DNA of 63,104 bases, the filler included, from Psammoneis japonica (Eukaryota): assembly GCA_008632985.1 (NCBI GenBank). It is 4 parts of 4 records of this genome, joined end to end, with 100 filler letters (N's around TTAATTAATTAA, not from the genome) between each part and the next. Parts side by side here need not be neighbours in the genome. Positions count along the whole stretch, not along the records: positions 47,617 to 63,104 come from QPGO01000490.1; 3 more parts are not named here. One strand, given 5' to 3'. Below are positions 31,771-61,600 of this stretch, one piece after another (the stretch's first letter is position 1; every line of letters begins with the position of its first letter). The position numbers were made by a program, and so were the translations under genes. Below the pieces are notes generated by a model that did not search any database, was not told the origin of the DNA, and saw nothing but the letters and a program-made list of their open reading frames with translations.

Positions 31771-33614
31771 NNNNNNNNNNNNNNNNNNNNNNNNNNNNNN
31801 NNNNNNNNNNNNNNTTAATTAATTAANNNNNNNNNNNNNNNNNNNNNNNNNNNNNNNNNNNNNNNNNNNNAAAATGAAAATTTCAACCAATGTGCCTTTG
31901 TGTGTTCTTCTGCAAACAGGAACGAATCGCTCCAGTGCTGCTGGAATTGAACTCCGAGTGGAAGAAGCTCAATCCGAGCAGTGCTTCAAGAAGGAACACT
32001 GTGTTTCATCTACAAAACAAGAAGATTCGTTCTAACACGATCCATCTCAAGTGCCTCAGGACCAAGGACTCTGCAAGTGCACAGCATTGTCAAAATGTCT
32101 GCACCATGTCATGACTGGATAAAATTTCAGGTCATGAGTCGATCAGGTCCAAGAAACACATCTGCTGTTCAAGGAGAGACTGTTGGAGAGTTTTTAGAGA
32201 CCAACTCAACGAGCCTCGAGTCTGAAGACCAAGAAGGAACAGTTGAAAAGTGCTTCAAGAGTCTCTTGACTCATGTCTTCTGAGGAAATGCACTTCAGAA
32301 TCAGAGTCATTGTTTTCGAGATGATCTGAAGAAACCAAAGGCTCTCAGCAGCGAGAGAGTGCCCGTTAGACCCAAGAGGTCAATGAAGAGTGTCCACACA
32401 ACCCTTCAATCGATTCTAAGTTGGATCTGTCAGGAAACTGAGCTGTCAGCTGTCAGCTGTCACTCGCACCACAAGGATGGTGACATCAGTCGACTGCCCA
32501 CAATGCTGAAATGCTGGAACATGCTCTTGATGAGCTGATTGAGTTTTGAGTCATCTGGAAGTCATTTGTGACGTCTGTGACAACAAACCATGTCAAATCA
32601 GGCTCTGATGGCGGAGTTGATTCCAAAACCAAAATGGCTCCAAATTTGGTTCCAAAAATGGTCTCCTGCATGGCACCTGAACAATCCAAAGTGAATGAAA
32701 GGTGCAATCTTTGAAAAAAGAACACCTGCATCACGGATTGAAGCCATTCTGAAAATGAGCTGGCAAAAGAGTGCAAGGGTGACTCTGAAAGAGACCCAAA
32801 AATGCACCGTTCAAATGGCAGTCGCACGTGGTCATGTCACGACAATGAAAATGCCGTCAGCAAAAAAGAGTTGAATGTCATGATTGATCAGGCGGTTCAA
32901 AAAACACTCAAAGCGAGTTCCTCAAACAAAGAAAAAGAGCATGAGGGCAAAGAATTGGATTTTGATGCCCTCAGTGAAGAAAATTGCTAATTTGATTGGA
33001 TGATCCAGAGTGAATCCAAAGAATGATTTGTGTCTGTTCACGAGTTGTGTGCTCTGCTGGATGTCAGGAAGCCCAGAAAAAAGGCAGAAATCATTTGCAC
33101 TGGTCCAGGAGTCATCATTCACATGAATGCTTCCTTGGGGAAGGAGAGAAACAAGCATCTGCATGTTCCTGTCGATGGCGGAACATCATCAACCATGATT
33201 TTGTGCAAATTTGTGCGAAAGTTGAGAACACAAGAATCCGCCACCAAAACTTGGGGAACCAAGGGCGAGCTCTTTACGACTGACAGCAAACACCGAATTC
33301 AGTTCTCACCATGCAAATTTAAGACATGCTGATGTTCAAACAGCATGTGTTGATGGCACAGCATCTTCTTCAAGTCCATGTGACATGATCATGAGACGAG
33401 ACTTAATGTCCAGTCTTGAAATCACATTGGACTGTGCAGCTGAAGAAATTAAAGAGGAAGAAGCAACTGCATCTGTGAAGAATGTTGATCCACTCTTCGA
33501 AGCTGATGTTTCCAGCTGAGTGCCGATCACATTGAAAAATGTGATGCCGTGAATGGAGTTGACAATGGAGCCAATGGTCCTCGACTCACATTGTCACACT
33601 GCCAATCTCAAGAC

Positions 33615-40219: not shown

Positions 40220-41934
40220 ACACTCTGTCTTGTCTTGCACCCAATTCTTGGCCATCATGGTGGCATTCATTCAGTCTGTCGGTCTGTCTGTTGACAGGGA
40301 AGTGTGACCTTCGTCCAAGGGGTCAGGCCGGATTTTTGGTGTGTGTCACAGAGAGGGTGCATGTTAAAAAGCATGTGTTAGAGCGAGCAGACTGCACGTC
40401 AAAAGGAAACGTCCATGTGACAATTAAAATCCAACTGACAGATGGTTGAAGTGCAAAAAATCCACAATGGAATTCACAGCCATCACAGGATTGATTGTCA
40501 AGATGAAATGGTCACATCCTTGACCATCATCAATTGCTTGTGAAACGTGGCAGTGCAGCAGAGCAATGTGGCACATGAAGCAAGCCCGCCAAACTGCACA
40601 AAATCCACAAGCAAAGTGAACGCCAGAAACAAGAGCACACATCAAGCACTGGGAAACATGATCCGCACACTTGACTTGCAACACACACCTCTGGATGCTG
40701 AGGATCCTTTTGCTGGAATGTCATCAGCAGCAGCATTTGCAGCACATTCTGTGCATCACACCACTGTGCAAGCCACACCTGGACAAACAGTCTTTGGCAG
40801 AGACATGATGTTCAACGTCCAACATGTCGCAGACTGGAAATTCATCCAGCAGCGAAAACAAAAAATCATGAACAAAAACGACGCTCGAGAGAATGCTTGA
40901 CGTGCTCCTCACACGCACAGAGTGGGGGAGAAAAGATGCTGCACAAACCGAACGGGTTTGCCGTGCAGGTGTGGCTTTTCCCACCCCCCAAAATGAAAAT
41001 GCTGCCCTGGAATGGGGCAGCATCAGGTTGCATTTGTCTGTCGATCTGGCCCGAGCGGAGCTGGTGTCAGTTCAAGGGGACTGAACAAATGCTGACACAC
41101 TGTCATGAACACAGGCAGTTTATGTGCCATTGGCGATTGGTCCACTGTTGCTTGTTCAGTGACCCCAGCAGTGCAACATCTCACAATTCTAGAACCTGTT
41201 GATGCTGTTCAACACTCTGTCTTGTCTTGCACCCAATTCTTGGCCATCATGGTGGCATTCATTCAGTCTGTCGGTCTGTCTGTTGACAGGGAAGTGTGAC
41301 CTTCGTCCAAGGGGTCAGGCCGGATTTTTGGTGTGTGTCACAGAGAGGGTGCATGTTAAAAAGCATGTGTTAGAGCGAGCAGACTGCACGTCAAAAGGAA
41401 ACGTCCATGTGACAATTAAAATCCAACTGACAGATGGTTGAAGTGCAAAAAATCCACAATGGAATTCACAGCCATCACAGGATTGATTGTCAAGATGAAA
41501 TGGTCACATCCTTGACCATCATCAATTGCTTGTGAAACGTGGCAGTGCAGCAGAGCAATGTGGCACATGAAGCAAGCCCGCCAAACTGCACAAAATCCAC
41601 AAGCAAAGTGAACGCCAGAAACAAGAGCACACATCAAGCACTGGGAAACATGATCCGCACACTTGACTTGCAACACACACCTCTGGATGCTGAGGATCCT
41701 TTTGCTGGAATGTCATCAGCAGCAGCATTTGCAGCACATTCTGTGCATCACACCACTGTGCAAGCCACACCTGGACAAACAGTCTTTGGCAGAGACATGA
41801 TGTTCAACGTCCAACATGTCGCAGACTGGAAATTCATCCAGCAGCGAAAACAAAAAATCATGAACAAAAACGACGCTCGAGAGAATGCTTGACGTGCTCC
41901 TCACACGCACAGAGTGGGGGAGAAAAGATGCTGC
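39951..41934 (+). repeat. 992-bp apparently identical tandem duplication (39951-40942 / 40943-41934)
   Basis: Identical ORF translations offset by 992 nt. Confidence 0.92.
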
Positions 41935-42486
41935 TCGAGAAAGACTCACAGAAACTAGAACAGCCCCATGTTGGACCACATGCAACAACAACGGCACACA
42001 CTGATGGCACAGCACAGATCAAACACGGTGACGTCATTGACGCTGTCAACATCCGTCAAATTGCACCGTTCAACAACTGACTCTGATGTGCAATTGGGGA
42101 GGCGAATGCAACATGCATTGTTGTGCACATCATGTGTGCACACACAGAGATGTTAAACAAGTTTGTGCTTCAATTGCACGTCAATTGTGGGTTCGTACGA
42201 AGGACAGATCAATCACATGGAATTGATCGGATGTCGAAAATGGCAAATGCGGTCGCACGATGATGTTGACATCCAATGTGTCAATGTCAATCGCACCTGG
42301 ACAATCTGTTGTCACAATCTTGTTCTCTGAAAAGCCTCTTGTCTGCAGGAACAGTGCAAGTGCTTTGGGCCATTGAGAACCCATTTGGAGAAACCCAAAA
42401 TGATTGAGTGGAAACAAATCTCATAATTTGTCACTTTTCACACTTGACTCTGCTTTTGTTTGCACTCGTTCTTCGAGCATGGTGCA

Positions 42487-44559
42487 CGGCCCTTCTCTGT
42501 CCTGATGATGATTTCTCAGATGAGGCTGTCCCAACAGATGTTTTCCATGCTCACCTCAATGCGATCAGCTCCCGCTCTCTCACTCCGGAGGAGGCTGCTC
42601 TTGACCACATCGAATGGGAAGAAGGCGAGCAGCATCAACTGGACCAATTTCATGCTCTTGGTGTGCATGGCCCTCCCCAACCACGTCCCCCTGGAGCAAA
42701 TGTCATGCATCTGCATTGGGATTGCATGGTGAAGCCGGATGGACAACGTCGTTCTCGGCAATGTGGAGATGGTTCCAAGTCGGCAATGCCGGCCTTGCAT
42801 GAGTTGACTTCCACATGTTTGTCGTGTGTGGAACGTTCTGTCAAAAAGATGTTCTTTGCTCTCAGCGCAGCCATGTCGCATCGTGTCTTCAGCAGTGATG
42901 CTTGGGATGCCTGTGCTCATTCTCCTGGTCCTTCACAGCCGGTTCTTGTTGCTGTCAATGACGCACATGCTGCCTGGTGTGAAAAGAGATTTGGCAAGAA
43001 AGCACCCTGCCATTGTGTTCTCCTGCTCAAGCATGCTCTTCAAGGCCACCCTGAAGCTGGTGTCCTCTGGGAAAAGCGCGTCAATTTGATTCTAACAGGT
43101 GTGAAACTTCTTTTCTGCAATGCCGCTCATGACAAGTGCATCTGCTCTGGTGAATGTGATGGTGTCAAGGTCCTTCTGCTCCGTCAGGTTGATGATTTTG
43201 CACTTGCTTGTCCCTCTGAAAAGATTGCAAAAGAGATCTGCGACCATGTTGGCAAGGCTCTCCAGATGGAAAATGAGGACACTCCTCCGTTCAAGCATTT
43301 GGGCTTGGTTGCTGAATTCAATGGCATTGACATCATCCAAAATGACGACTCGATTGCTGTCAATGTTGCCAGTTACCTTGATCGTGTTTTCAAGACCCAT
43401 GGTTGGGATGATCCCGCTGCGAATGAATCTGAGTCTGATTTCAAAGCTGCACCTGTGCCGGTTGATTGCATCCCTGACCTGTGTGCTGCTGAAGGTCCTG
43501 CAGAGGGTGCTCCTGAGTGTGATGCTCTCTCCGAGTCCCAGGGTTTCTCTCACTGTTCTGTTCTGGGTGAATTGGTCTTTGCTCACTCGTGTTGTTGTTT
43601 GGATGTTGGTCATCCTGTTGTTGCCTTGTCCAAGTTTTCCAAGGCTCTGGCTGAGATTCATTGTGATTCACTCAAGTGCATGGCCAAGTGTTTGTGGTGC
43701 GCCAAACATTGGGGGCTGATGCATGAGAAGTCCAAGCGTGATCCCAGTCTGCCTCCTCGTGATTGTGAATGGCTTGAGGACATGTGATCCATCTCTTCCG
43801 GACTTCCCTTGTGCTGATGACCTCTTCCAACTCCAAGGCTTCATTGATGCAGCACATGCCAATGAACTGTGGCATCACCATTCTGCTGCCGGACACGTGC
43901 ATGTCCTTGCTGGTGCTGCAATTGATTGTCATTGCCGCGCGCAAGTGATTGCTGCCACCAGCTCCATGGAAGCTGAATTTCTCACGGCTGTTGCTGGTGC
44001 AAAACAGACCCTGCACCTCCGCATGGTTCTGGAAGAATTGGGCTTTCCTCGACGTGGTGCCACTCCCTTGCACATTGACAACTCCTCTGCCATCCAGATG
44101 ATCAATGACAAGGTGCCTGCAGAGCGATCCCAACACATTGATGTTCAACATTTTGCCATCCAAGACTGGTGTGACACAGGCAAGATTGTTGCTCGGCATG
44201 TCCCGGGTGTCATTGACCCTGCCGATGTGCTGACCAAGGCTGTGGGTTGGATGCTTCATGCCTGCCATGCCCGCCGTTTGATGGGACACTGCCATTGATT
44301 GTCATTGGGTTGTGTGGATTGAGTCTTGGGTGTGTCTCTCTTTTCTCTGTTTTGTTCTTTGCCACTCTGGCCCTCTCTTTTTATTCGGATCATCTCTTTC
44401 TTTCTTGTCGAGCATTGCATTGCTCATCATGGGAGGGTGACAAACATCCAAGATGGGGAGTGCACTCCCTTGTGTTGGACAGACTGGCATGGACAGCATG
44501 GAGAGATCCAATGATCTCTCCTTTGCTCACTTTCTTTCTCATCCAGCACACGATTGTCA
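42487..44559 (+). mobile_element. Copia C fragment (RT-RNase H plus putative 3' LTR 44438-44559), abutting the Gypsy 1 LTR
   Basis: HALQGHPEAG, LRQVDDFAL, FIDAAHA, MEAEF, IDNSSAI, DPADVLTK; PPT GGGAGGG followed by TGACAA..TTGTCA. Confidence 0.8.
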
Positions 44560-47516: not shown

Positions 47517-47807
47517 NNNNNNNNNNNNNNNNNNNNNNNNNNNNNNNNNNNNNNNNNNNNTTAATTAATTAANNNNNNNNNNNNNNNNNNNNNNNNNNNN
47601 NNNNNNNNNNNNNNNNAAGTCAGGAGGTGTCCACCTTCTTTCCGAGGAGTCAGATATGTGCTTTAAAAGGCTTGCTCGAAAGAAAATGTGAATAAACAAT
47701 CTTATACCTTTTGTTCGTATGAATTTGTTTAGAAGTTCTCTACTTGCGGAAGGGACCCTTCCAACTTCCAATACATGCAACCCACGAAAGTCGGATCCAT
47801 TCTATTT

Positions 47808-48250
47808 CTAACCATTTCCAGCCGCACTAACCTGCGAAAGAAATGTACACAGTCATATGATGAGTCTGGGGTTCTCTCGGAAACAGCGAATTCAGCACAG
47901 GCCAAGCACAGGAGCGTGGCACGACCAACATTGCTTACCCTTGGAATATCGTTGAGCTCTGTCAATTCGCCGAGTTTCTGATTAAATTCCTCAATTCTTT
48001 CGCGGTGACTTTTAGATGCAAGCTTCTCCAAATCCTTCTTCTCGCGTTCCAATTTCCGTTTCATGGCTCGTTGCTCTGCCTCCGTCATGTCATCATCCAC
48101 GTGACTTGCTCCCTCGTCTTCCTGTTTATTTCGTTGTTTCGCTTTCTTTTCATCCTCGCTGCGATGTTTTGACTTTCGACTCTTCTTTTTCGATTTCTTC
48201 TTCTCTCCCTTGAAAGATAGAGATCCTCCTACAAACGCTGTTTTCGTCAT
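47808..48250 (-). CDS. FAM32A-like (DUF1754) small nuclear protein; intron ~47832-47938
   Basis: GGSLSFKG.KKK, MTEAEQ, KSHRERIEEFNQKL..L.E.NDIPRV; last exon VSAAGNG*. Confidence 0.82.
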
Positions 48251-48373
48251 CGTGGCTGCTGGTACGCGTTGTTACTTGTTACGGTACCGGTGTGTTGGGA
48301 GTTGCCGCGGGATGCGGACGCGACATCGTGATCGCGCAGCTATGAGATACTGTTTTTTCGCTTCTTCTGCGGT

Positions 48374-48447
48374 GCCTGCTTAGCTCAGTTGGTTAGAGCA
48401 TTTCATTCGTAATGAAAAGGCCGCTAGTTCGAATCTGGCAGTAGGCT
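48374..48447 (+). tRNA. tRNA-Thr(CGT)
   Basis: Acceptor GCCTGCT/AGTAGGC, D-arm TAGCTCAGTTGGTTAGAGC, anticodon stem TTTCA/TGAAA with loop TTCGTAA, GTTCGAAT T-loop, downstream T-run. Confidence 0.93.
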
Positions 48448-48496
48448 TTTAATTTTTCCTGCAGGAACCGCATGTGACGAATCATCACTGCACCAC

Positions 48497-49367
48497 GAGC
48501 ACAGCACACATCATTTCAAGCCAGAGGGCAAGAAAACGATGAGTGATGCACAGGATGGCATGCAATGGCTGTTTGAGTCGAGAGTCTGCTCCAATGACAC
48601 GCATTTCATCTAATGTGACAGGCTCCAATCTTGTGCATCACAGACGTTGGCTTTTCGCACCAAAGACATTGACTTTTTTGCCCCCCCCCCCCCCCCAAGC
48701 GGGGAGGACATCGCATGGCAGCAGGAGGCACCACCAGGAGAGGGTTGTGCACAGCAGGCCCAGCATCTGCCACTTTGACGCTCTCTTGCACAGTGCTGTT
48801 GAACTTGAAATTCCAGGAGCCAGGCAGGATTTTTTTTGGCTGGGGCTCAACAAGAGAGCTTTTGTGCGCAGCTCTTGGCCTTTGGCGGAGCAGCTGCACG
48901 CTCGTTGCAAGCCATTTGGTCAGAGCATTTCATTTTCACAATGAAAAGGCTGCCAGCTCAAATCTGGCCCAGCTCAAATCTGGCAGCAGGCTTCGACTTT
49001 TGTGTGAAGACTCGCCGCACCACGCGCGCAGGAGCCGTGCACGTGAGCACATCATTTCAAGCTTCAAGCCAGAGAAGGGCATGAAAACGATGAGCGATGC
49101 ACAGGATGGGGTGCAATGTGGGTTTGAGTCAAGAGTCTGCTCTGATGACACATGCCTTGTGTCATCCAGTGTGGCTGGCTTCAATCTCTCGCATGGCAGA
49201 CATGCCAACTTTTTGCTTCCCCCACCACAAAGCAGGAGACACCCTCGAGCAGCAGCACCACCAGGGGGCCTGCAAGAAGGGGTGTTTGCAACAGGCCCAG
49301 CATCTGTGCTGCTTTGGCACTCTCTCACACAACATTGTGAAGCTTGAAATCCGAGAAGCCGGGCAGG
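48497..49367 (+). repeat. Diverged ~540-bp tandem duplication of the tRNA plus downstream flank; second unit continues at 61210 beyond the Gypsy 2 insertion
   Basis: cacatcatttcaagc..gatgcacaggatgg..gagagtctgctc at ~48505 and ~49047; caggatttt continuation at 61210. Confidence 0.7.
48916..48992 (+). pseudogene. Mutated pseudocopy of tRNA-Thr(CGT)
   Basis: ttggtcagagcatttcattttcacaatgaaaaggctgccagctcaaatctggc..agcaggct aligns to the tRNA and has a 16-bp internal duplication. Confidence 0.85.
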
Positions 49368-51503
49368 TGCACTGTGCTCGAAGAACGAGTGCAAACGAAA
49401 GTAGAGTGGTGTGCGAAAAGTGGAAATTGTGAGATTAAAATTTGCTCTGTGATTTTTGGTTTCTCCGAACGAGTTCTCAATGGCCCAAAGCTTCTGCACT
49501 GCTTCTGCAGACAAAAGGCCTTTCGGAGAATGCATTCGTGACAACAGATTGTCCGGATGCGATTGCTGTTGACACGCAAGATGTCAACATCGTCAATCGA
49601 TCGCACCTGCAATTCTCGACATCCGATCAACTCTGTGTGATCGTTCTGTCCTTTGTGCGCATCCACGACTGTGGTGCGATTGACACACAAATGACGTGTG
49701 ATCACAAATGTGTGTGTGACAGTCGCATGCTGCATTCGCCTCCCCAATTGCACATTGGAGTCATTTGCAAGTGGATTGTTCGACGGACATCGACAGTGTC
49801 AACAATGTCTCCACTTTCACTGCATTGTGCCATTGGCAATGACTGTTGTTGTTTTGCACGGGCAACACAGGGCCGTTCCAATTTCCAAATGTCTTTTGAG
49901 AGTGACATTGTTTGTTTCTCACTTAACATGTGCATGCACAGCACCATGTCGAGTGTTCTCATTGACGTTCTTGTTGATGTGAACACAAGGACTGATTGTC
50001 CTGGAGCAAGTGTTTTTCCTGACATCGATTGCACGTGGCATCGTGCCCAGTGCTTAATGTGCGCTCTCAATTGTGGCGTTCACTTGCTTGCTTGTGGATT
50101 TCATGCAGTTTGGCGGGCTTGCTTCATGTGCCATGTTGCTCTGCTGTGCTGCCACGTTTCACAAGTGACAACAAACGATGGTCAAAGATGTCATGACAAT
50201 TTCGTCTTGACAATCAATCCTGTGATGGTTGTGAATTCCATTGTGGATTTTTTTTTTTTTTGCACTTCAACCATCTGTCAGTTGGATTTTGATCGTTGTT
50301 TGGACGTTTCTTTCTGACATGCCGTTGTTGTTTTGTCATTCCGAAGGCACTGGTTTCGTGCACTGAGTGGGTGAATGTCCATTTTTCTTTTCTTTTTCTA
50401 GATCTTTGGCACATCTCGTGTGTCGACATGATGCACATTTTAATGTCTTGCCTTGTACATTGTACAATGCAACCGCACGGGTGTTGTGAGATTGTCTTTT
50501 GCCAGTGTGAAGTGGACACGTATGATGTGCGCCAATCTGTCACTGTTTTTTCCTAAATCGTCCTTTAAAAAGGCGATTTTATCCTTGTGACTTGAGCATT
50601 TTTTGATCTCGCTCGCCTCCACGAAAAGTGTTCGCATGATGTGTCGCGTCCGACAATTTGGAGGGAATGTCTTTGTCCCGTTTTAACGGCAGGACATTGT
50701 CGCAGGATTCAATTTTCTATGGCAAGTCGGCTGATCGCGTCTGTCGCGACGATGTTCGCCTTGCCCTCGTTGCAATCTAATTCGGGACTGAAGTTGTCAA
50801 CGCACGACTTTGTCCGTTGTGTCTTGTGATCCGTGTGTGCACAAATCTGTTGGCCAAACAGCATGTTTCGGAATTTTGTGAGTGTTTTCACTGTGGACAG
50901 AAGTTCTTTTTTCCGTTGTGACACACAATGTTGAAATCCGTGTATGATGACAACACAGTTTTTGATTTGACATGCTCCACATTTTCGGAGACTTTTCGTT
51001 CCGCACTTGCACTTTTGCCGTTTGACCTTCATTGAGGTGAATTTGGCTGGTGTTGTGCAGGAGATCGTTGAGACTGCATGTCTCGACAACAGCAACGCAT
51101 GACAACGAGATGTCGCAGTGTTCTTTGCGTTTTTCTCGTGTTGCGATTGCTTGAATCGCCTCCATTTTCTTTGCAATCGATTGCATGTCGTCACGCATGG
51201 AAGTCTTGACAGTTTGTTTCAAGTTAAACAGTGAAGGACTTTTGTTGTTGACCTTCTAAGCGACTGTTCTAGTCGTTTGAATGCCGCACTAAGCTGTTGC
51301 TTGCACAGGTGACATTTTGAAGTTACTTTTGTCAGGCACAAACGATCACATGTGGTCGTTCTGACAACTTCAAACCTGTCATGAGTTCACTCAAGTGTTG
51401 CACAAAAACATCTGGGGCTCTGTAGATTCTCATTGGAAGTCCACAGTGCTCATTTTCTCCCCACGGCATGATTTTCGTGTGAGCACGACGTGTGCTTTTT
51501 TTA

Positions 51504-54500
51504 TGACAGGATTTGAACAGGATTTGGATGCGCGCGAAGCATCGCGCGCTGTTTAGTTTACCGCGCACAGTTTTGTGTGCTTTAGTTCTGCGCGTTCACG
51601 CGCGATGCAGTTTGCTTTCGAGCCACAAGGCTCACAAGAATGACAACAGCAGCCCAATCACACCGACTTGCACGTCTTTCGGCTCCTGCAACGGTCTCTG
51701 AGCGGAGACTCATCTGCTGTTTAGACAGCAGCAAGGAGTCATTGTTTGAATTCTTGCCATTTGCCTTCAACTTCTGTCAGATTAACAGTCTTGCTCATTG
51801 TCAACCCATTGAGCAACCGCCATCGTCGTCGTTGATTTACCAACCACGCCATTTCAATTCCACGTGGACCTCCGTATGTGTTCTACATGCATCGGCAAGT
51901 CTACGCGCATTCAATGCCAGGGCATCGGCAGGAAGTTAACGTCACCGTCAAGTCTCCTTACCGCTGGATGTCTGGATTGATCATGCTGCCTTTGATCGCT
52001 GAAGACACACATTCAACGGTCACATCCAAGTCTGTCCTTGATCCTCATCCCTTGACACACCTGTTCATCGGTTGACGGTCAAGAACCCCACATGTTCAAG
52101 GATCTTCGTCGCTGGAGACATGTGTGTGCACGCATGTCTTCACGGCCAAGAACCTGCACCTGCTCTTCGGACCACGGTTTTGCTGCCACTCTGCAAGCAC
52201 ACCGAGTCCATTGCACCTGATCTGCCCCGGACCACTGGTGCTCCACAGCTCCACTGGGTCCACGAGGACGACTGTGAGAGCAAGCAGCCGTGATTGCAGC
52301 CCACGTTGGGGCGAGGGTGCTTTCCCGCGTTTGTTCATTCGTCCACAGCGCCTGACGCCTGCGTCAACTGGCCAGCCTGATCGGGAAATCCAACCGACAT
52401 AAAATGAGAACGGTTCGGGGGTCTTGTCCACCTCTGGTCAGCTCACCTGCAGGGGTTTACAACCCGCCACTCCGCTCGCAAGCAACCCAAAGCGCCGCCA
52501 GCTGCGGGTTCAGACGTGCCGGCACAACTCTACGGACCGGACAGGAAGTTTAGCACTTGACAACGAACGGGATGACAAAGCCCGGCGACTTCTGATTTTA
52601 AGACAGTTCAAGATTTCAAGTCAAGTCTGTTTCAAGTCAAGTCCATTCTCATCCAAGTTTTCGAGTCTGCCTTCGCTTCCCAACCAGAATTGATTGTCCT
52701 GACACCACTTTTGTCTGCCATGGTTCTCACTCGTCAGCAACAAACCGATGGTTTCGAGCACGTTGTTGGAACCGTGCTTGCTCAAGGTGCTGGGAGTCCT
52801 CTTCGTTTGGCTTTGGCCCAAGACGGCACGGACTCGTGTCAGGAACTGTTCACATTCATGCCGTCCCAAATCGACTCGCTTGAGCGCGACAACGGCACTG
52901 ATGTGATCCCTTTGCCCCGTGGCCATGAGAACATGTTAGCAGCACTGGCTGGCCTGCACATTGTCAAAGCACACAAGGGTCTTGACGTTGCCAACGACTC
53001 CTCTTTGTTCACGCATGACGAGTTCCTTGCCTGCCGCCTCAGCCCGGACTGCATGTCCTCTGTGTCCATCGGCAGCTCACCCCTTGCACCTCCACATGTC
53101 ACCAACCCGACCAAGGCACGCGACCCAGTGCGAGACTTCAAGCGAGGCATCAAGCGTGATCCCACCGCTTTCACGGCTCTCAAATCCGACAAGCAGTGGC
53201 ACACTTGGCACACCTCACTTGTGGCACAGGCCCGTGCCCAAGACGTCGAGTGCATTCTAGACTCGTCGTACAAACCGACCAGCCCCGAAGACAAACTGCT
53301 CTTTGCTGAACAGCAAAAGTGCATGTTCGCCATCTTTGAATGCATCCTTCTCACCGACAAGGGCAAGGCTCTCATTTGCGAAAATGTGGGGTCTTCTGAC
53401 GCACAGACCGTCTGCCGCTCCTTGTCTGAGCACGCGCTTGCCTCCACCCGTGCATCTGTCGAGTCCTCCACCCTGCTCACGCACCTCACCACCGCACGTC
53501 TTGGTGATGGCACTTGGAAAGGTCCGACCCACGGGTTCATCCTTCATTGGCAAGATCAGTTGCGCAAGTGCGAGGCACTCATCCCCGCCAGTGACCACTT
53601 CTCCGAAGGACAGAAGCGCGTCATGCTCGAGAATGCCATGCACCCTGTCGAGGAACTCCGTGCTGTCAAGAACCAAGCTGATCAGCATCGTGCGCAGAGT
53701 GGCAAGAGCCTCACATGCGATCAATGCTGTGGCTTGCTCCTCTCCGCGGCAGCTCAGTGCGACAGCACGTTTCAACCCAAGACGACACCTCGAGCTCCCC
53801 GACGCGCCACATGCGCACACGACGTCTGCTCCGAGGAACCGTCCGACGATGTGTTCTACGACATTGACAGTGATGTTGACGTCCTTCAAGCCAATGCTGC
53901 CTGCACCCGCGGTCCCAGCCTCACCGGTGTCCAATGGAGACGTCTCCCTCCCGACCACCAACGGCTCTGGGATTCGTTGCCCGATTCCTCCAAGGCGATC
54001 ATCATTGAGCACTCTCGCCCGCCTCCCCGCAACCCGCGAGCCAGCAACTGCCATGAGTCTGTTGCGGCCAACCTTCACGGCCAACACCTTGGGAGTGACG
54101 GTGATGTCAACTTGTCCAACACGACTCCTGCTGACTGTGGTGACTCCGCCACACATGTGGACGCCACTTCGGACAATCCCATCCTGGCGCACCTCACCAA
54201 GCGCAAGCCACTGCCACCCGGCGATCTGCAACGTCTGTTGTCTCCTAACCACGCCCCCAATGCCAGTCGACCGGGGCCATCCGCCGCTTCCTCTGCCCCA
54301 CCAGCTTCTGCAGATGACATGGAACTTAACGGCCGCACTTGCCGCCGCGTCAACAACCACAATGTCATTTGCTCTGCCTCTGCTCATCGCTCCACACGCA
54401 CTGGCGCTCTAGTCGATCGTGGGGCCAACGGCGGCATTGCTGGCGACGACGTTCGCGTCATCACACGCACCTCTCGCCAAGTCGACGTTCAGGGCATTGA

Positions 54501-57500
54501 CGATCATCAATTGGTGGACATCCCCATTGTCACTGCTGGTGCCGTCATTGAGACCCAGCGTGGTCCCGTCGTCGCCATCCTCCATCAGCACGCACACACG
54601 GGAAAGGGCAAGACCATCCATTCCTGCGGCCAGCTCGAATGGTGCAAACAGGATGTCAACGATCGCTCTGTCAAGGTGCCCAACGGCTTGCAACGTATTG
54701 CCACTCCTGATGGCTGTGTCATCCCCATTGACATCAAGGCTGGCCTGCCTCATGTTGCCATGCGACCTTGCACTGACGCCGAATGGGACACCCTGCCCCA
54801 TGTCATCCTCACCGGTGATGACACATGGGACCCTTCCGTCCTCGATCACTCTGTCACTGACAACGACCAGTGGTGCGACGCGATCTCTGACCTGCAGGAC
54901 GATCCCACTGCCAACCTGTTTGACAAACACGGCAACTACCGTCACCGTGTCGTTGTCAACGAGACCATCTTGTCCGCTTCCTTGTCTGCCGATCACGCGT
55001 CCGCCCTCGATGATCACCTCATTCCGAACGACGACGTGTTCCACGAGTGTCATCTGCATGCGATTGACCCCCAGGGCGATGACGTTCCACCTCCGGAGCG
55101 CACTGTCCAGCCCAAGGACCCCCCCTTCGAGTCTCTTCGGCCTTGCTTTGGCTTCCTGCCTGCCGATGCGGTCCGTCGCACTTTTGACTGCACCACGCAG
55201 TGCACCTGCATGCCCGCCGGCACACACCTTCGCAAGGCCTGCAAATCACCCAATCCCACCCTCAATGTGCACCGCCACAACGAGCCTGTCGCCACTGACA
55301 CCGTTCATGCCGACACCCCGGCCGTCGACTCTGGTTGCACCAGCGCCCAACCATTTGTTGGCACCGAGTCTACCGTCACTGACGTCTGCGGCACTAAGAC
55401 GGACAAAGAGTTTGTCAACACACTCGAGGATCAGATCCGTGAACGTGGTGCCCCATCCAAACTCATTGGCGACCGTGCTCAAGTTGAAATCAGCAACAAA
55501 GTGCTCGGGATCCTACGCGCCCTCTTCATCTCCAGCTGGCAAAGTGAGCCTCACCAGCAACACCAAAACTTTGCCGAGCATCGACACCAGACCGTGAAGC
55601 ACATGGCGAACACTGTCATGGACCGTTTTGGTTCGCCCGCCCACACATGGCTGCTGGCGCTCATGTGCGTGTGCTTCACACTCAACCACACAGCGTCCCC
55701 ACGTCTCCACTGGCGCATGCCCCTCGAGACTCTCACTGGATCCACCCCGGACATCAGCCCATTGCTTCGCTTTCACTGGTGGGAACCAGTGCACTTCCAC
55801 CTCGATGACTCCGATTGGCCGTCCGAATCCCGTGAGTTGCGCGGACGCTTCGTTGGCATTGCTGAGCACGTCGGCCACCAGATGACCTTCAAGATCCTGT
55901 CTGACGAGACTCAGAAGATCCTCTGCCGGTCCAACGTTCGCTCCGCCACCCCTGATCCTGCCGTTCGAAACCTGCATCTTGATCCTCCTGATGGGGAGCC
56001 ACCTGAACCCATCATCAAATCTCGCCATGACGACAACCCCGTCGATTCTCCTGATGGGGAGATCAGGACACCCAAGATGCCAGTTTTCGATCCGCAAGAC
56101 ATCATTGGACGTACCTTCCTCATGCAGCCACAAGAGGACGGACAACGCCACAGAGCTCGCATCGTCAAGGCCGTCGAAGACCACGAATGGAAAGTGAACG
56201 GCAATCCCGAGCTCACTAAGTTCGTCTGCTCTGTCAACAATGACGAATACGAGGAAGTCCTTGCCTGCAATGACATCATGAATCACATTGAGCAAGAAGA
56301 CGAAGACACCACCATTTGGAAATTTCGACGCATCGCATCACACGAAGGACCTCTGAAGCCTCACGACCCAACCTGGAAAGGCTCAAGCTACAACATCATG
56401 CTTGAATGGGAAAGTGGGGAGATCACGTCCGAGCCTCTTGCCATCATCGCCAAGGACGACCCCGTCACCTGTGCCATCTGTGCACGAGAGAACGGACTCC
56501 TAGACACGGATGGCTGGAAGCGGTTCCGCACTATCGCGAGGCGCCAAAAGAAGCCATTTCGCATGGCCAACCAAGCCAAGCTTCGCTCCTTCCGCACTGC
56601 ACCTCGCTACAAGCACGGATGCGAAGTTCCCCGGAACTACAAACACGCCATGTCACCAGACGAACGCAACGGCAACCGCAAGTGGGGAGACGCAACTAAT
56701 CTCGAGATGGACCAACTCGACGAATGCGAAGTCTTCCATGACTGCGGGCCCTTCAAGTCTTCCACTCCTCCTGCGGGACACAAGAAGATCCGAGTGCACC
56801 TGGTGTTCGACGTGAAACACGACGGTCGCCACAAGGCACGACTCGTAGCCGACGGGCACCTCACGGACGCACCTGTCGACAGTGTGTGCTCCGGAGCAGT
56901 CTCCCTCCGTGGCCTTCGGCTGATGATTTTCCTGGCCGAACTCAACGAGCTGGAGACATTGGCCACCGACATTGGCAATGCCTGCCTTGAAGCCACCACC
57001 AAGGAGAAGCTTTACATTGCAGCTGGACCCGAATTTGGCAAACTCGAAGGACACATCCTTGTCATCCACAAGGCACTGCATGGACTGCGCAGCTCCGGTC
57101 TCCGCTGGCACGAGCGCTTCGCCGACTGCCTGCGAGCTGAAGGCTTCTTCCCCTGCCGCGCCAAACCCGACATTTGGATGCGCAGGGACGGCGACCACTG
57201 TGAATGCATTGGCGTTTATGTGGATGACCTCGCCATTGCCATGAAGGATCCTCAATCTTTCATCGACACTCTCACGGAAAAATGCAAGTTCAAGCTCAAG
57301 GGTGCGGGACCCATTGAGTTCCATCTGGGTTGCGACTTTTCCCGGGACCCCGACGGAACCTTGTGCCTGTCTCCGCGCAAGTGCATCGAGCGCATGGTCG
57401 ACAGCTGCGCCCGATTGTTTGGGGAGAAACCTGCCACCAATGCCCTGTCACCTCTAGAGAAGGGTGACCACCCCGAACTGGACACTTCCGAACTGCTGGG

Positions 57501-58612
57501 ACCCGATGGCATTCACAAGTTCCAGTCTCTTGTTGGTTCACTCCAATGGGCAGTGTCCCTTGGTCGAATTGACATCACCACGGCTGTCATGTCACTCTCT
57601 AGCTTCCGAGCTGCGCCCCGTCAAGGCCACTTGGATCGTGCCAAACGCGTCTGTGGGTGCCTCTCCAAGATGCGACACGGTGCTCTCCGCGTTCGCACGG
57701 AAGAGCCCGACTGTTCGGATCTCCCTGCTCCGGCCTGTGAATGGATGCATTCCGTGCATGGTGAAGCAGAAGAGATGATCCCGAAGGATGCTCCACCGCC
57801 CCTTGGCAAGTTCGTCACTGCCACCCACTGCGTCGATGCAAACTTGCACCATTGCATGCTCACCGGATGCTCTGTCATGGGAATGCTCCACTTCCTCAAC
57901 AAATTCCCGGCTGATTGGTTCTCCAAGAAACAAGCCACCGTGGAGACTGCAACCTGCGGATCTGAATTTGTTGCCGCAAGGAATTGTGTTGAGCAGATTG
58001 TCGACCTGCGCATCACCCTGCGCTGCCTTGGCGTCCCGATCCGTAATGTCAGTTGCATGTTCGGTGACAACAAGTCGGTTGTAGACAGTGCCACCATCCC
58101 GCACTCCAAGTTACACAAGCGACACACCGCACCATCGTTCCACCATGTGCCTGAGGCAATTGCCTCTGGTTGCCTTGAGCTCCACTTCATCGAGGGCTCC
58201 CGCAACCCTGCTGACATTCTCAGCAAGCATTGGGGTTGCTCCCAAATCTGGGACCTTCTCCGCCCCCTCATGTTCTGGAACTTCATCCCATCCGAAGTCG
58301 AATCTGTTTCTGTGGCTCCTCAAGCAAACTGGGGAGTGACAGGATTTGAACAGGATTTGGATGCACGCGAAGCATCGCGCGCTGTTTAGTTTGCCGCGCA
58401 CAGTTTTGTGTGCTTTAGTTCCGCGCGTTCACGCGCGATGTAGTTTGCTTTCGAGCCACAAGGCTCACAAGAACAATGACAGTAGCCCGATTGCACCGAC
58501 TTGCACGTCTTTCGGCTCCTGCAACGGTCTCTGAGCGGAGACTCATCTGCCATTTAGACAGCAGCGAGGAGTCATTGTTTGAATTCTTGCCATTTGCCTT
58601 CAACTTCTGTCA
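51504..58612 (+). mobile_element. Copia A (CoDi-like), full length; 276-bp LTRs 51504-51779 and 58337-58612, 5-bp TSD TTTTA
   Basis: LTRs TGACAG..CTGTCA, PPT GGGGAG, TTTTA on both flanks, single gag-pol ORF. Confidence 0.95.
52720..58389 (+). CDS. Copia gag-pol polyprotein (~1889 aa), open but hypermutated (Tyr to Cys/His)
   Basis: Protease LVDRGANGG, integrase TDTVHAD..SEPHQQHQNFAE, RT KARLVADGH and YVDD, RNase H VDAN/SEFVA/DNKS/NPADILSK. Confidence 0.92.
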   Translation: MVLTRQQQTDGFEHVVGTVLAQGAGSPLRLALAQDGTDSCQELFTFMPSQIDSLERDNGTDVIPLPRGHENMLAALAGLHIVKAHKGLDVANDSSLFTHDEFLACRLSPDCMSSVSIGSSPLAPPHVTNPTKARDPVRDFKRGIKRDPTAFTALKSDKQWHTWHTSLVAQARAQDVECILDSSYKPTSPEDKLLFAEQQKCMFAIFECILLTDKGKALICENVGSSDAQTVCRSLSEHALASTRASVESSTLLTHLTTARLGDGTWKGPTHGFILHWQDQLRKCEALIPASDHFSEGQKRVMLENAMHPVEELRAVKNQADQHRAQSGKSLTCDQCCGLLLSAAAQCDSTFQPKTTPRAPRRATCAHDVCSEEPSDDVFYDIDSDVDVLQANAACTRGPSLTGVQWRRLPPDHQRLWDSLPDSSKAIIIEHSRPPPRNPRASNCHESVAANLHGQHLGSDGDVNLSNTTPADCGDSATHVDATSDNPILAHLTKRKPLPPGDLQRLLSPNHAPNASRPGPSAASSAPPASADDMELNGRTCRRVNNHNVICSASAHRSTRTGALVDRGANGGIAGDDVRVITRTSRQVDVQGIDDHQLVDIPIVTAGAVIETQRGPVVAILHQHAHTGKGKTIHSCGQLEWCKQDVNDRSVKVPNGLQRIATPDGCVIPIDIKAGLPHVAMRPCTDAEWDTLPHVILTGDDTWDPSVLDHSVTDNDQWCDAISDLQDDPTANLFDKHGNYRHRVVVNETILSASLSADHASALDDHLIPNDDVFHECHLHAIDPQGDDVPPPERTVQPKDPPFESLRPCFGFLPADAVRRTFDCTTQCTCMPAGTHLRKACKSPNPTLNVHRHNEPVATDTVHADTPAVDSGCTSAQPFVGTESTVTDVCGTKTDKEFVNTLEDQIRERGAPSKLIGDRAQVEISNKVLGILRALFISSWQSEPHQQHQNFAEHRHQTVKHMANTVMDRFGSPAHTWLLALMCVCFTLNHTASPRLHWRMPLETLTGSTPDISPLLRFHWWEPVHFHLDDSDWPSESRELRGRFVGIAEHVGHQMTFKILSDETQKILCRSNVRSATPDPAVRNLHLDPPDGEPPEPIIKSRHDDNPVDSPDGEIRTPKMPVFDPQDIIGRTFLMQPQEDGQRHRARIVKAVEDHEWKVNGNPELTKFVCSVNNDEYEEVLACNDIMNHIEQEDEDTTIWKFRRIASHEGPLKPHDPTWKGSSYNIMLEWESGEITSEPLAIIAKDDPVTCAICARENGLLDTDGWKRFRTIARRQKKPFRMANQAKLRSFRTAPRYKHGCEVPRNYKHAMSPDERNGNRKWGDATNLEMDQLDECEVFHDCGPFKSSTPPAGHKKIRVHLVFDVKHDGRHKARLVADGHLTDAPVDSVCSGAVSLRGLRLMIFLAELNELETLATDIGNACLEATTKEKLYIAAGPEFGKLEGHILVIHKALHGLRSSGLRWHERFADCLRAEGFFPCRAKPDIWMRRDGDHCECIGVYVDDLAIAMKDPQSFIDTLTEKCKFKLKGAGPIEFHLGCDFSRDPDGTLCLSPRKCIERMVDSCARLFGEKPATNALSPLEKGDHPELDTSELLGPDGIHKFQSLVGSLQWAVSLGRIDITTAVMSLSSFRAAPRQGHLDRAKRVCGCLSKMRHGALRVRTEEPDCSDLPAPACEWMHSVHGEAEEMIPKDAPPPLGKFVTATHCVDANLHHCMLTGCSVMGMLHFLNKFPADWFSKKQATVETATCGSEFVAARNCVEQIVDLRITLRCLGVPIRNVSCMFGDNKSVVDSATIPHSKLHKRHTAPSFHHVPEAIASGCLELHFIEGSRNPADILSKHWGCSQIWDLLRPLMFWNFIPSEVESVSVAPQANWGVTGFEQDLDAREASRAV

Positions 58613-61600
58613 TTTTATTTGACACGGTGGCATTCCATGTTTGAATCAAGTGGATTGCACACATGAAACGTTCTTGCTTCAACAGTGTTTCCTGAATGTT
58701 GGGTGAAGGATGCACCACCTGCACGAACCTTGTGCCAAGCTTCTGAGTGTCGGGTGCGGTCGAACTCGACCTGTTTTCTTTGGACAATGAGTCTCAGAGC
58801 GACTCATTCAGAGCAATTTCATTCTTAAGACTTCAATCTTTCACAACAGGTCAAACTCCTTTTGATTGGACGCCTCCAAAGACTGTGATGGGAGAAGGTT
58901 CTCACGCGTCGTGGAATCGCGTCAGATTTTCCACGATGAGATCCACTGATGTTTCCCATGCATTCGTCTGAGGAACTTTTCAAAATGATTTCAACCTCTC
59001 AAGAAGAAGATTGAGATGGTTGTGTTCATTTGGGTTAGATGCATCGCCGCAGTTGTCACTTGGTTAAGATCGATGGCGTGACAATGTGAGTCGAGGACCA
59101 TTGGTTCCGTCACTGACTCCATTCACGGCGTCACATTTTTCAATGTGATCGGTTTTCAGCTTGAAAACATCGGCATCGAAGAGTGCACGAACATTCTTCA
59201 TAAGGTGATTGCTTCTTCCCATTAGATTTCTGCATTTGCGCAGTCCAACATGACTTGCAGGACTGGACATTGAGTCGCGTCCCATGATCACATCATTTGA
59301 ACCTGAAGAAAATTTGGTGTTTTCAACATGTGCTGTTTGAACATCAGCATGCCTTAAATTTCACATGGTGAGAACTGAATTCGGTGTTTGCTGTCAGTCG
59401 TAAAGAGCTCACCCTTGGTTTCCCAAGTTTTTTGGCGGTGGGTGTTTTGGTTCTCAACTTTCGCACGAATTTGCGCAAAATTGTGGTTGACGATGTTCCG
59501 TTGTCGATCGGAACACGTAGATGCTTTTTTCTCTCCTTTCCCAAGGAAGTGTTCACACAAATGATGACTCCTGGACTGGCATGAATTATTTCTGCCTTTT
59601 TTCTGGGCTTCCTGACATCCAGTGAAGCAAATAATTCGTGAACAGACCCAAAATTGTTCTTCGGATTCAGTCTGGATCATCCGATCAAATTGGCACTTTT
59701 CTTCACTGAGGGCATCAGAATCTGATTCTTTGCCCTTGTGCTCTTTTTCTTTGTTCAAGGAACTCGCTTTGAGCATTTTTTGAACCGCCTGATCAATCAT
59801 GACGTTCATCTCTTTTTTTGCGAGCGGCATTTTCGTCATCGCGACGCGACCGCGTGCGATTGCCATTTGAACGGCGCATTTTTGGGTCTCTTTCAGAGTC
59901 ACCCTTGCACTCTTTTGCTAGTTCATTTTTAGAATGGCTTCAATCCGTGATGTGGGCATTCTTTTTTCAAAGACAAGACCTTGCATTCACTTTGGATTGT
60001 TCTGGTGCCACACAGGAGACCATTTTTGGAACCAAATTTGGAACCTTTTTTATTTTGGAACCAACTGCGCTGTCAGAGCCTGAGTTGACATGTTTTTTCG
60101 TCACGGACGTCATGAACGACCTTTAGATGACTCAAAACTTAATCAGCTCATCAAGGATGAGTTGCAACAGTTGATTGTTTTGGACAGTAGACTGGTGCTG
60201 CCATCCTTGCGGTGCGAGTGATGGCTGACAAATCAGCGCTCGGTTTCCCGCTAGATTCGACTTAGAATCCATCTGAGGGTCGCACAGACTCTCATCATTG
60301 ACCTCTTGGGTCTAACAGAGGCTTTCTTGCTGTCAAGCAGCTCTGGTTTCTTCAGATCGTCTTGAAAATAACAGCTCTGATTCTGAAGTGCAGTTCTTGG
60401 AAAGACATGAGATGTGAGACTCTTGAGGTACTTTCCAACGGTTCCATCTTGCTCTTGGACTCGAGGCTCGTTGATTCGGTCTCCAAAAACTCTCCAACAG
60501 TCTCTCCTTGCATGCTAGACGCATTTCTCGGACCTGATCGACTCGGAACTTGCACTCTCTGCAACCATGACTTGGTGTAGATTTTTTGACAATGTGGTGT
60601 GCTTGAGAGCCCTTGATCCTTGGGTGCTTGGAATAGACCGCATTAGAGCGAATCCTCTTGTTTGGCAGACGAAAAACAGCGTTCCATCTTGAGGCACTGC
60701 TCGGCTTGAGCTTCTTCCGCTCGGAAATCGATTCCAGCAGAACTGATGCGATTCGTTCCTGTCCACAGAAGAATTTGCAAAGGCACATTAGTTAAAATTT
60801 TCATTTTCCGTGCTTTTTACCTTCTGTGGTGTGTATACACAATGCACTATGCTCGAAGAACGAGTGTAAACGAAAGTAGAACAGTGTGCGAAAAGTGGAA
60901 ATTATGAGATTAAAATTTGCTCTGTGATTTTTGGTTTCTCCGAACGAGTTCTCAATGGCCTAAAGCTTCTGTACTGCTTCTACAGACAAAAGGCCTTTCG
61001 GAGAATATATTCGTGACAACAGATTGTCCGGATACGATTGCTATTGACACGTAAGATGTCAACATCGTCAATCGATCGTATTTGCAATTCTCGACATCCG
61101 ATCAACTCTGTGTGATCGTTCTGTCCTTTGTACGCATCCACGACTGTGGTACGATTGACATATAAATAATATATAATCATAAATATGTATATAACAGTCG
61201 CATACTGCACAGGATTTTGGCAGCTCTTGGCGCCTTTGCCCCTGGGCCTGTGCACTTGTTGCGAGCCGTTTTGGAGCTCGGCCACTGGGGACTGTGCATG
61301 CAAGATCATGATCTGCACCCCAGTGCTTGTCAAGCACTTCATAATCATTTTTTAGTGCACATGTTTTGTGGTGGGAAACTTGGCTCCATCTTCCCCTTGT
61401 GAGAATCATTCGAAAGCGGGGCAAACCTGAAAGCGTTGAGAATAAATCATCATATGCTAAAATGTATGTCATTCAATTAATGAATCCAATTGGATATATA
61501 TTCATATTTTTATATCTATCGTTTCTTAACCACGATTGATAATTATGCAGAAATTAATGTACCATTTAGTACTCTCTACTTAGAGCATGATGTTGTGTTG

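What the first reader, a model, noticed from the sequence alone, without database searches (positions are those of the whole stretch)
48374..48992. Functional tRNA-Thr at the block boundary, with a mutated pseudocopy 540 bp inside
The tRNA keeps all its TAs, and TA depletion begins within ~30 bp downstream. In the duplicate every aligned TA is CA (ttag->tcag, gtaa->acaa, ctag->ccag, gtag->gcag) and CpGs have decayed. The tRNA structure fixes TA as the ancestral state, giving an independent polarity control and showing that non-TE duplicates are hit. Known: tRNA genes act as heterochromatin barriers in yeasts; a similar role here is inference.
Basis: partly seen in the sequence, partly recalled or inferred. 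Interest (0 to 1): 0.75.

Follow-up and report, generated by a model that had tools for sequence, protein, structure and literature searches.

The report
tRNA genes border TA-erased DNA blocks
In this diatom-like genome a working tRNA gene sits exactly where a block of DNA stripped of TA steps by a targeted mutation process begins, its dead copy inside the block shows the direction of the mutation, and most other tRNA genes examined sit at such edges too, which hints that tRNA genes both attract and stop this kind of mutated DNA.

Summary
Observation confirmed. tRNA-Thr(CGT) at 48374-48447 is intact. A tandem copy about 530-550 bp downstream has 4 of 4 well-aligned TA changed to CA and 3 of 3 CpG decayed. 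The unit has no dispersed copies, so it is not a SINE. Pseudocopies at six other tRNA loci give the same polarity (34 of 36 TA changed). The scan had already noted TpA erasure and a tRNA-pseudocopy polarity control on other DNA of this genome; a B. natans preprint reports the same signature. New here is the genome-wide test: 31 of 36 other tRNA loci have an erased block within 400 bp, against 25% for unerased non-coding DNA, and the edge lies at the tRNA rather than at the next protein gene. Limits: tRNAs explain under 0.5% of about 10,000 edges; at this locus a spliced FAM32A gene starts under 200 bp away and could set the edge; two unnamed element families and local duplications cluster at tRNAs, so attraction explains part of the association. 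Best reading: tRNA loci nucleate blocks and the occupied tRNA gene stops them. A yeast-type barrier is plausible but unproven.

The parts
47517..47616 (.). Artificial spacer between two separate contigs (C491 | C492); the erased DNA to its left is not known to be adjacent
   Evidence: N runs; C492:754 = window 48370
47808..48250 (-). FAM32A-family gene, divergent from the tRNA, with a GT..AG intron at 47832-47938; TA content normal
   Evidence: 288 homologs, many labelled FAM32A, the named ones diatoms; Pfam FAM32A only 17.3 bits, under cut-off 22; a contig of run X2 skips exactly this intron and reaches 48282; TA o/e 0.52 for 47617-48373
48374..48447 (+). Intact tRNA-Thr(CGT) gene, 5 TA kept
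   Evidence: only Thr-CGT among the 30 loci typed by ARAGORN
48446..48457 (+). T-run, probable Pol III terminator; holds the last TA (48450) before the block
   Evidence: sequence; terminator role inferred from general knowledge of Pol III genes
48452..48908 (+). Spacer of unit 1 and junction to unit 2; single-copy, TA-erased, CpG-decayed
   Evidence: TA o/e 0.04, CG o/e 0.45; no dispersed copy; contig depth about 41-71 against over 5,000 in the LTR element
48903..48992 (+). tRNA-Thr pseudocopy: 4 TA to CA, 3 CpG decayed, 2-bp insertion in the anticodon loop, 16-17-bp internal duplication
48993..49367 (+). Spacer of unit 2, 263 of 334 aligned bases identical to unit 1; ends in the 4-bp target-site duplication
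   Evidence: TA 0 and CG o/e 0.42 for 48909-49367
49368..49734 (+). tRNA-proximal 367-bp LTR of a young element inserted into unit 2: 26 of 28 TA erased, 0 of 21 CpG changed
51504..58612 (+). Copia-type element nested in the LTR element (276-bp LTRs, 94.6% identical; ORF 52576-58389 with RVT_2)
60843..61209 (+). tRNA-distal LTR, essentially unerased (28 TA, o/e 0.82)
61210..61345 (+). Second copy of the target-site duplication and erased continuation of the tandem unit: the far end of the roughly 1-kb block that existed before the insertion
   Evidence: alignment score 32 against a maximum of 30 in 2000 shuffles (alignment); TA o/e 0.16, CG o/e 0.38

Best explanation
A region-targeted TpA-to-CpA/TpG mutator, with slower CpG decay, erases silent blocks of this genome (shown as a sequence signature; the enzyme is unknown). 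At this locus the tRNA plus about 460 bp was tandemly duplicated. The duplicated DNA became a roughly 1-kb erased block, and a young LTR element with a nested copia landed in it later (order shown by the target-site duplication and by deeper CpG decay in the flanks). tRNA loci get such blocks more often than ordinary gene ends because they duplicate locally and attract mobile elements (partly shown). The block then ends at the tRNA because the Pol III/TFIIIC-occupied gene is refractory to the silent state that licenses the mutator, so DNA on its far side is shielded (inferred; barrier-like). tRNAs are one minor kind of edge among many.
For: 31 of 36 other tRNA loci abut a block, against 15.6% of unerased and 24.6% (bootstrap 16-35%) of unerased non-coding positions. 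Block before next ORF: 41 of 71 tRNA sides against 42 of 178 ORF ends, median gap 48 against 311 bp. At one-sided loci the tRNA is nearer the block than the ORF in 15 of 20, and 9 of 22 keep over 600 bp of unerased ORF-free DNA behind the tRNA. Both orientations serve (16 upstream, 19 downstream erased sides), as for the S. pombe tDNA barrier (PMC2040200, abstract). 8 of 36 are unerased or nearly unerased islands with blocks on both sides. The domain is positional: proximal LTR 26 of 28 TA erased, distal LTR spared. An element copy upstream of tRNA-Lys(TTT) is unerased for 4 kb while the other side of that tRNA is erased from +108. Nucleation: own pseudocopy in the adjoining block at 7 of 32 tRNA loci against 2 of 63 probes at other edges, p=0.006; element families D and U at 10 of 36 loci.
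Against: About 10,000 edges genome-wide against 42 tRNA edges: the cell does not need tRNAs to make edges. TA and CpG levels in the first kb inside tRNA edges equal those at other edges (p=0.15 and 1.0). The CpG ramp near tRNAs also occurs at random edges (0.64 to 0.35), so the halo is not tRNA-specific. 5 of 36 tRNA loci have no block within 400 bp, and the two sides are not significantly anti-correlated (p=0.18). At this locus there is no downstream halo and the FAM32A start codon is about 200 bp from the edge. The unerased elements beside tRNAs may simply be young. No chromatin data were available.
Confidence: 0.5

Rival explanations
1. No barrier. The mutator acts on inserted or duplicated DNA, and such DNA starts right beside tRNA genes because elements target Pol III genes and tRNA loci duplicate. 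The edge is simply where the foreign or duplicated DNA begins.
For: All 5 genome-wide matches of the family D terminal motif follow a tRNA 3' end directly. A sixth copy led to a tRNA-Gly(GCC) missing from the first list. Family U lies upstream of five tRNA loci. Here the duplicated unit begins at the tRNA. Precedent: TRE3, Skipper-2, Ty3 (PMC5006619, PMC5911963, passages).
Against: 21 of 26 loci without D or U, and 16 of 21 also without a pseudocopy, still abut a block. The first 500 bp inside tRNA edges are 1-2% covered by hits in the random sample and 8-11% by any other locus held (a small sample, so rare families are missed). Identical LTRs are treated differently by position, and some D and U copies are unerased.
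Confidence: 0.25
2. Selection only. The mutator reaches the tRNA, but purifying selection keeps its TA steps; insertions are tolerated next to tRNAs (internal promoter, no UTR), so blocks pile up there.
For: tRNA TA steps are structurally constrained (alignment). Thr-CGT was seen once among 30 typed loci. Erasure reaches the terminator here.
Against: Selection on tRNA bases cannot keep neutral TA behind the gene: over 600 bp of unerased ORF-free DNA at 9 of 22 one-sided loci. TA o/e is 0.22-0.24 at 25-200 bp from tRNAs against 0.03-0.05 deeper. The contig of run X1 covering the tRNA shows no change in it (one contig).
Confidence: 0.13
3. At this locus the edge is set by the active FAM32A promoter, as at most edges in the genome; the tRNA merely lies inside the protected zone.
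For: A spliced contig reaches 48282, 92 bp from the tRNA. Start codon to edge is about 200 bp, against an ORF-end median of 273-333 bp. Over 99% of edges have no tRNA.
Against: It does not explain the other loci, where the tRNA is the outermost element and the next ORF is often far away.
Confidence: 0.12

Closest known systems
TpA-specific hypermutation in Bigelowiella natans (Mettrop et al., bioRxiv 10.64898/2026.01.13.699255; parts 1-3 of 5 of the text read; term search)
   Same: TpA to CpA/TpG transitions confined to regions; TpA-poor, CpA/TpG-rich clusters as the long-term trace.
   Different: There it was measured as new mutations in integrated NCLDV and virophage DNA. Here about 42-46% of sampled DNA is erased, host tRNA duplicates are hit and CpG decays too. 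The preprint has no passage on boundaries, barriers or diatoms and one on tRNA (editing enzymes only).
tDNA heterochromatin barrier, S. pombe cen1 tDNA-Ala (PMC2040200; abstract and outline seen)
   Same: A tRNA gene at the limit of a silent domain, in either orientation.
   Different: There shown by mutation and ChIP and needing TFIIIC and Pol III. Here only a mutational footprint, at dispersed kb-scale blocks, in a stramenopile, with no chromatin data.
tRNA-targeting retroelements TRE3, TRE5, Skipper-2, DGLT-A, Ty1, Ty3 (PMC5006619, PMC5911963; passages) and Dada DNA transposons (PMC3706591; parts 1-2 of 4)
   Same: Elements at fixed short distances from unrelated tRNA genes, often in tandem.
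   Different: Families D and U have ORFs with no Pfam match and family D had no protein homolog. They lie beside intact tRNA genes, whereas Dada inserts inside them.
Repeat-induced point mutation (RIP) of ascomycetes (recalled; also described in the preprint's discussion)
   Same: Dinucleotide-specific transitions in duplicated DNA, including host duplicates.
   Different: Opposite polarity. One copy of the tRNA and one of two LTRs are spared, so targeting follows position rather than pairing.

Membership tests
tRNA gene (RF00005) | Cloverleaf over the gathering score, anticodon, downstream T-run | tested here: met
   67.7 bits against 29, no broken pairs; CGT; T-run
tRNA-derived SINE | Dispersed copies of head plus body | tested here: not met
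   Genome search finds only the locus, its tandem copy and tRNA-Thr(AGT) on C50; single-copy depth
B. natans-type TpA hypermutation | Transitions concentrated at TpA, giving CpA or TpG | tested here: met
   36 of 73 T/A in TA against 33 of 452 other T/A at other tRNA pseudocopies; 27 of 56 against 4 of 168 in the LTR pair
B. natans-type TpA hypermutation | Confined to regions | tested here: met
   TA o/e 0.52 next to 0.04 across the tRNA
B. natans-type TpA hypermutation | Measured target is DNA of viral origin | tested here: not met
   The target here is a host tRNA duplicate and an LTR element; the preprint itself suggests wider foreign targets
B. natans-type TpA hypermutation | Raised new-mutation rate; same enzyme | not testable with these tools
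   Needs mutation-accumulation lines and genetics
tDNA heterochromatin barrier | tRNA gene located at the domain limit | tested here: met
   (domain read from the TA footprint, not from chromatin)
tDNA heterochromatin barrier | Independent of orientation | tested here: met
   16 upstream and 19 downstream erased sides
tDNA heterochromatin barrier | Needs TFIIIC and Pol III; the silent state spreads when the gene is removed | not testable with these tools
   No ChIP, methylome or mutant data
RIP | C-to-T (CpA to TpA) polarity | tested here: not met
   TA is lost and CA/TG gained
RIP | Both copies of a duplication are mutated | tested here: not met
   Both spacers are erased, but the distal LTR and the functional tRNA are spared
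tRNA-targeting retroelements (for family D) | Fixed distance from unrelated tRNA genes | tested here: met
   Terminus about 5-15 bp after the 3' end at six tRNA genes
tRNA-targeting retroelements (for families D and U) | Reverse transcriptase or integrase domain | tested here: inconclusive
   No Pfam family in three ORFs; the family U ORF is cut off and whole elements were not all read
Dada transposons (for family U) | Insertion inside the tRNA gene with a 6-7-bp duplication; DDE transposase | tested here: inconclusive
   Adjacent tRNAs are intact; far ends not fetched; Atlas lead to CxC/KDZ clusters at 0.89 is weak

The most novel reading that the evidence does not exclude
Pol III-occupied tRNA genes act as true barriers to a DNA-editing genome-defence system in a diatom. 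The TA-erasure map is then a fossil record of chromatin insulators that can be read from sequence alone, and new families of tRNA-seeking mobile elements use the barrier as a safe harbour, one side of it shielded from the mutator.
Probability: 0.35. Interest if true: 0.82.

Novelty: new variant of a known kind. Interest (0 to 1): 0.62.

Why it matters
tDNA barriers rest mainly on yeast genetics. A mutator that writes the extent of silent domains into DNA gives a sequence-only assay for boundary elements in a distant lineage, and it constrains how the unexplained TpA mutator is aimed: by chromatin position, not by sequence or pairing (one LTR erased, its twin spared). The pseudocopies give structure-anchored polarity. 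The two unnamed element families beside tRNA genes would extend tRNA targeting to diatoms.

Tried and rejected
SINE: rejected. Strand bias of the mutator from 4 of 4 CA: not supported (22 CA: 10 TG at other pseudocopies, many from one array; 9 CA: 16 TG in the LTR). Block nucleated by the LTR element: disfavoured, because the flanks on both sides of the insertion have deeper CpG decay (0.38-0.45 against 0.83-1.5); an older, since-deleted element cannot be excluded. tRNA edges older or deeper than other edges: not found. A tRNA-specific halo: TA and CpG are higher near tRNAs, but the CpG ramp is general, and the far window was used to pick the sides, which inflates the contrast. Cross-species test: a metagenome scan gave 2 tRNA-Thr(CGT) loci of unidentified organisms with no erased DNA, which is uninformative. 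No RNA holder was listed. Identity of the D and U ORFs: Pfam, one protein search and two Atlas calls gave nothing firm. A third shared upstream motif matched 7 places, 3 of them near listed tRNAs: inconclusive. Controls with U6, 5S or Pol II snRNA genes were not run, since no more genome DNA could be fetched. Literature searches for a tRNA-boundary link to TpA erasure or to diatom methylation found nothing relevant; most subscription journals are not in the library. One search was seen as a listing only and is not used as support.

Full report
Setting. The window joins four separate contigs by 100-nt spacers; contig C492 begins at 47617. The genome held is 91.4 Mb in 597 contigs. The gene next to the tRNA is a FAM32A homolog whose named relatives are diatoms, so I call the organism diatom-like. 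A two-state model trained on 20 of 59 random 10-kb stretches puts 46% of that DNA in a TA-erased state; a window rule on all 59 gives 42%.

The observation. tRNA-Thr(CGT) at 48374-48447 is intact and keeps 5 TA. The last TA is at 48450; 48452-49367 has 1 TA against about 49 expected from composition. The copy scores 20.6 bits in Rfam and is far above shuffles (62 against a maximum of 24; whole unit 176 against 36; 1000 shuffles each). The four TA-to-CA changes and 3 of 3 CpG losses are real. Two TA at the ragged ends do not align cleanly. A contig of run X1 has CA where the window has TG at one ancestral CpG (48951-48952), which fits independent decay of that CpG on opposite strands in two alleles. 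The 531-bp unit has no dispersed copies and lies at single-copy depth, so it is a local tandem duplication and not a SINE.

Polarity elsewhere. Six other tRNA loci carry their own pseudocopies (21 aligned segments, 14 from one array on C310). Of 36 TA steps 34 are changed (22 CA, 10 TG, 2 CG). Transitions hit 36 of 73 T/A in TA against 33 of 452 other T/A. Without the C310 array it is 15 of 16 TA changed. ARAGORN reads one C310 copy as tRNA-Ala(TGC) because the TA at the anticodon edge of Thr(TGT) became CA. Earlier notes of this scan report the same polarity from other host duplicates, including a tRNA-Glu copy.

History of this locus. A 367-bp LTR pair (49368-49734, 60843-61209) with a 4-bp target-site duplication interrupts unit 2, and the unit continues after the far LTR (score 32 against a maximum of 30 in 2000 shuffles, a modest margin). 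A copia element is nested inside. The proximal LTR has lost 26 of 28 TA and 0 of 21 CpG. The distal LTR is essentially spared, and 5 of the 32 differences fall outside TA steps. Both flanks of the insertion have CG o/e 0.38-0.45 against 0.83-1.5 inside. Inference: a block of about 1 kb made of the tandem duplicate existed first; the element landed in it recently; the mutator is fast, recent and positional, and nearly saturating 0.9-1.3 kb from a tRNA whose far side is untouched (TA o/e 0.52). X1 record 4 stops at 49367 and runs on for 241 letters that do not fit, possibly an allele without the insertion; I could not read those letters.

Genome-wide test. The Rfam search gave 42 matches (63 of 3479 candidates scored, so a lower bound). 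Removing three C310 pseudocopies, collapsing three near-identical Ser-GCT loci and leaving out this locus gives 36. A 500-bp stretch with at most 2 TA starts within 400 bp on one side at 23, on both sides at 8, and on neither at 5. Null rates for at least one side, from the 59 random stretches: 15.6% of unerased positions, 24.6% (bootstrap 16-35%) of unerased positions outside ORFs of 120 aa or more, and 51% of all positions, most of these inside blocks; exactly one side 19% of all positions. Walking outward, a block comes before the next ORF at 41 of 71 tRNA sides against 42 of 178 ORF ends (p=5.5e-7; with other ORF settings 42 of 70 against 39 of 133, p=4e-5), at a median of 48 against 311 bp. 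At 22 one-sided loci (2 dropped with both distances zero) the tRNA is nearer the block than the ORF in 15 of 20, median relative position 0.09 (KS p=3.5e-5), and 9 of 22 keep over 600 bp of unerased ORF-free DNA behind the tRNA. ORF calling by length misses short exons and UTRs, and labels for the nine lowest-scoring loci were assigned by eye.

Results against a simple barrier. There are 64 edges in 590 kb, about 10,000 genome-wide, against 42 tRNA edges. The first kb inside tRNA edges does not differ from other edges in TA (p=0.15) or CpG (p=1.0). TA and CpG are higher 25-200 bp from tRNAs than deeper, but the CpG ramp is seen at random edges too, and this locus has no downstream halo. The two sides of a tRNA are not significantly anti-correlated (p=0.18). 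Here a contig of run X2 lacks exactly the FAM32A intron and reaches 48282 (the run's kind is not on record), so an active promoter probably lies within about 100 bp of the tRNA, and this locus alone cannot assign the edge to the tRNA.

Attraction. Family D: all 5 genome matches of its TA-bearing terminal motif follow a tRNA 3' end (an erasure-tolerant pattern gave 5 matches, 4 of them at tRNAs and one on C103 about 38 kb beyond the tRNA). A further copy predicted a tRNA-Gly(GCC) on C43 that ARAGORN confirmed, while three other copies checked had no tRNA upstream. Units of 4.6-6.5 kb stand head to tail and carry a 640-960-aa ORF with no Pfam or protein match. Family U lies upstream of Lys-TTT, Lys-CTT, Met, Phe and Ala-AGC genes. 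Own pseudocopies lie in the adjoining block at 7 of 32 tRNA loci against 2 of 63 probes at other edges (p=0.006; 0.014 without this locus). The association survives removal of these loci: 21 of 26, then 16 of 21.

Mechanism. Shown: polarity, positional targeting, order of events here, the tRNA-edge association, tRNA-linked elements and duplicates. Inferred: the erased state marks silent, CpG-methylated chromatin; Pol III/TFIIIC occupancy excludes it and halts it. I give 0.5 to nucleation plus barrier-like stop, 0.25 to attraction alone, 0.13 to selection alone and 0.12 to the FAM32A promoter setting this edge. Adenine deamination is the preprint's proposal for the enzyme; nothing here tests it.

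Known systems and novelty. The signature matches B. natans TpA hypermutation (10.64898/2026.01.13.699255; parts 1-3 of 5 read; its supplements were not seen and might bear on boundaries). The placement works like a S. pombe tDNA barrier (PMC2040200, abstract), with membership untestable here. The elements recall TRE3, Skipper-2 and Ty3 (PMC5006619, PMC5911963, passages) and Dada (PMC3706591, parts 1-2 of 4), with membership unresolved. It is not RIP. Searches found no paper linking tRNA genes to edges of TpA-erased DNA, and look-ups showed single-locus notes but no genome-wide test. Verdict: new variant of a known kind; interest 0.62.

Noticed in passing
G000 C29:537298-546650 (L141), C43 (L136), C103 (L122, L140), C83 (L127), C167 (L112), C18 (L129), C135 (L137): Family D: unnamed 4.6-6.5-kb units with a short terminal direct repeat and a 640-960-aa ORF of no known family, in head-to-tail arrays that start about 5-15 bp after the 3' end of six tRNA genes. 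Candidate new tRNA-targeted mobile element.
   Followed up: partly
G000 C222 (L113:4080-8074), C25 (L105), C40 (L108), C167 (L112), C22 (L130), C49: Family U: element with an ORF of at least 770 aa upstream of five tRNA genes that share the same A-box start; weak Atlas lead to CxC/KDZ transposase-associated clusters (0.89).
   Followed up: partly
L042 (G000 C310:35097-37600): tRNA-Thr(TGT) followed by at least 14 partial or whole mutated copies within 2.4 kb; one is called tRNA-Ala(TGC) by ARAGORN because of a TA-to-CA change, so the mutator can create false anticodon calls.
   Followed up: partly
L136:228-498 (G000 C43): Two tandem tRNA-Gly(GCC) bp apart plus fragments; the upstream one has a TA-to-CA change. 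This locus was missing from the Rfam genome search.
   Followed up: no
window 60843-61209 against 49368-49734: Twin LTRs 11.5 kb apart: one lost 26 of 28 TA, the other almost none, with CpG untouched in both; TA erasure is much faster than CpG decay.
   Followed up: yes
G000 C16:81277, C185:55724, C310:34980, also C15, C76, C89, C260: A near-palindromic 20-bp motif about 100-120 bp upstream of three tRNA genes and at four places not near listed tRNAs.
   Followed up: partly
L141:4400-6400: About 2 kb of unerased DNA at the junction of two family D units inside an otherwise erased array, with no tRNA seen there.
   Followed up: no
window 31871-33611 and 59064-60807; 42162-42487 and 49367-49691: Older, more erased relatives of the LTR element on the neighbouring contig C491 (inverted, 76-93% alike).
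   Followed up: no
window 39951-41940: Apparently exact 992-bp tandem duplication inside erased DNA; recent or an assembly artefact.
   Followed up: no
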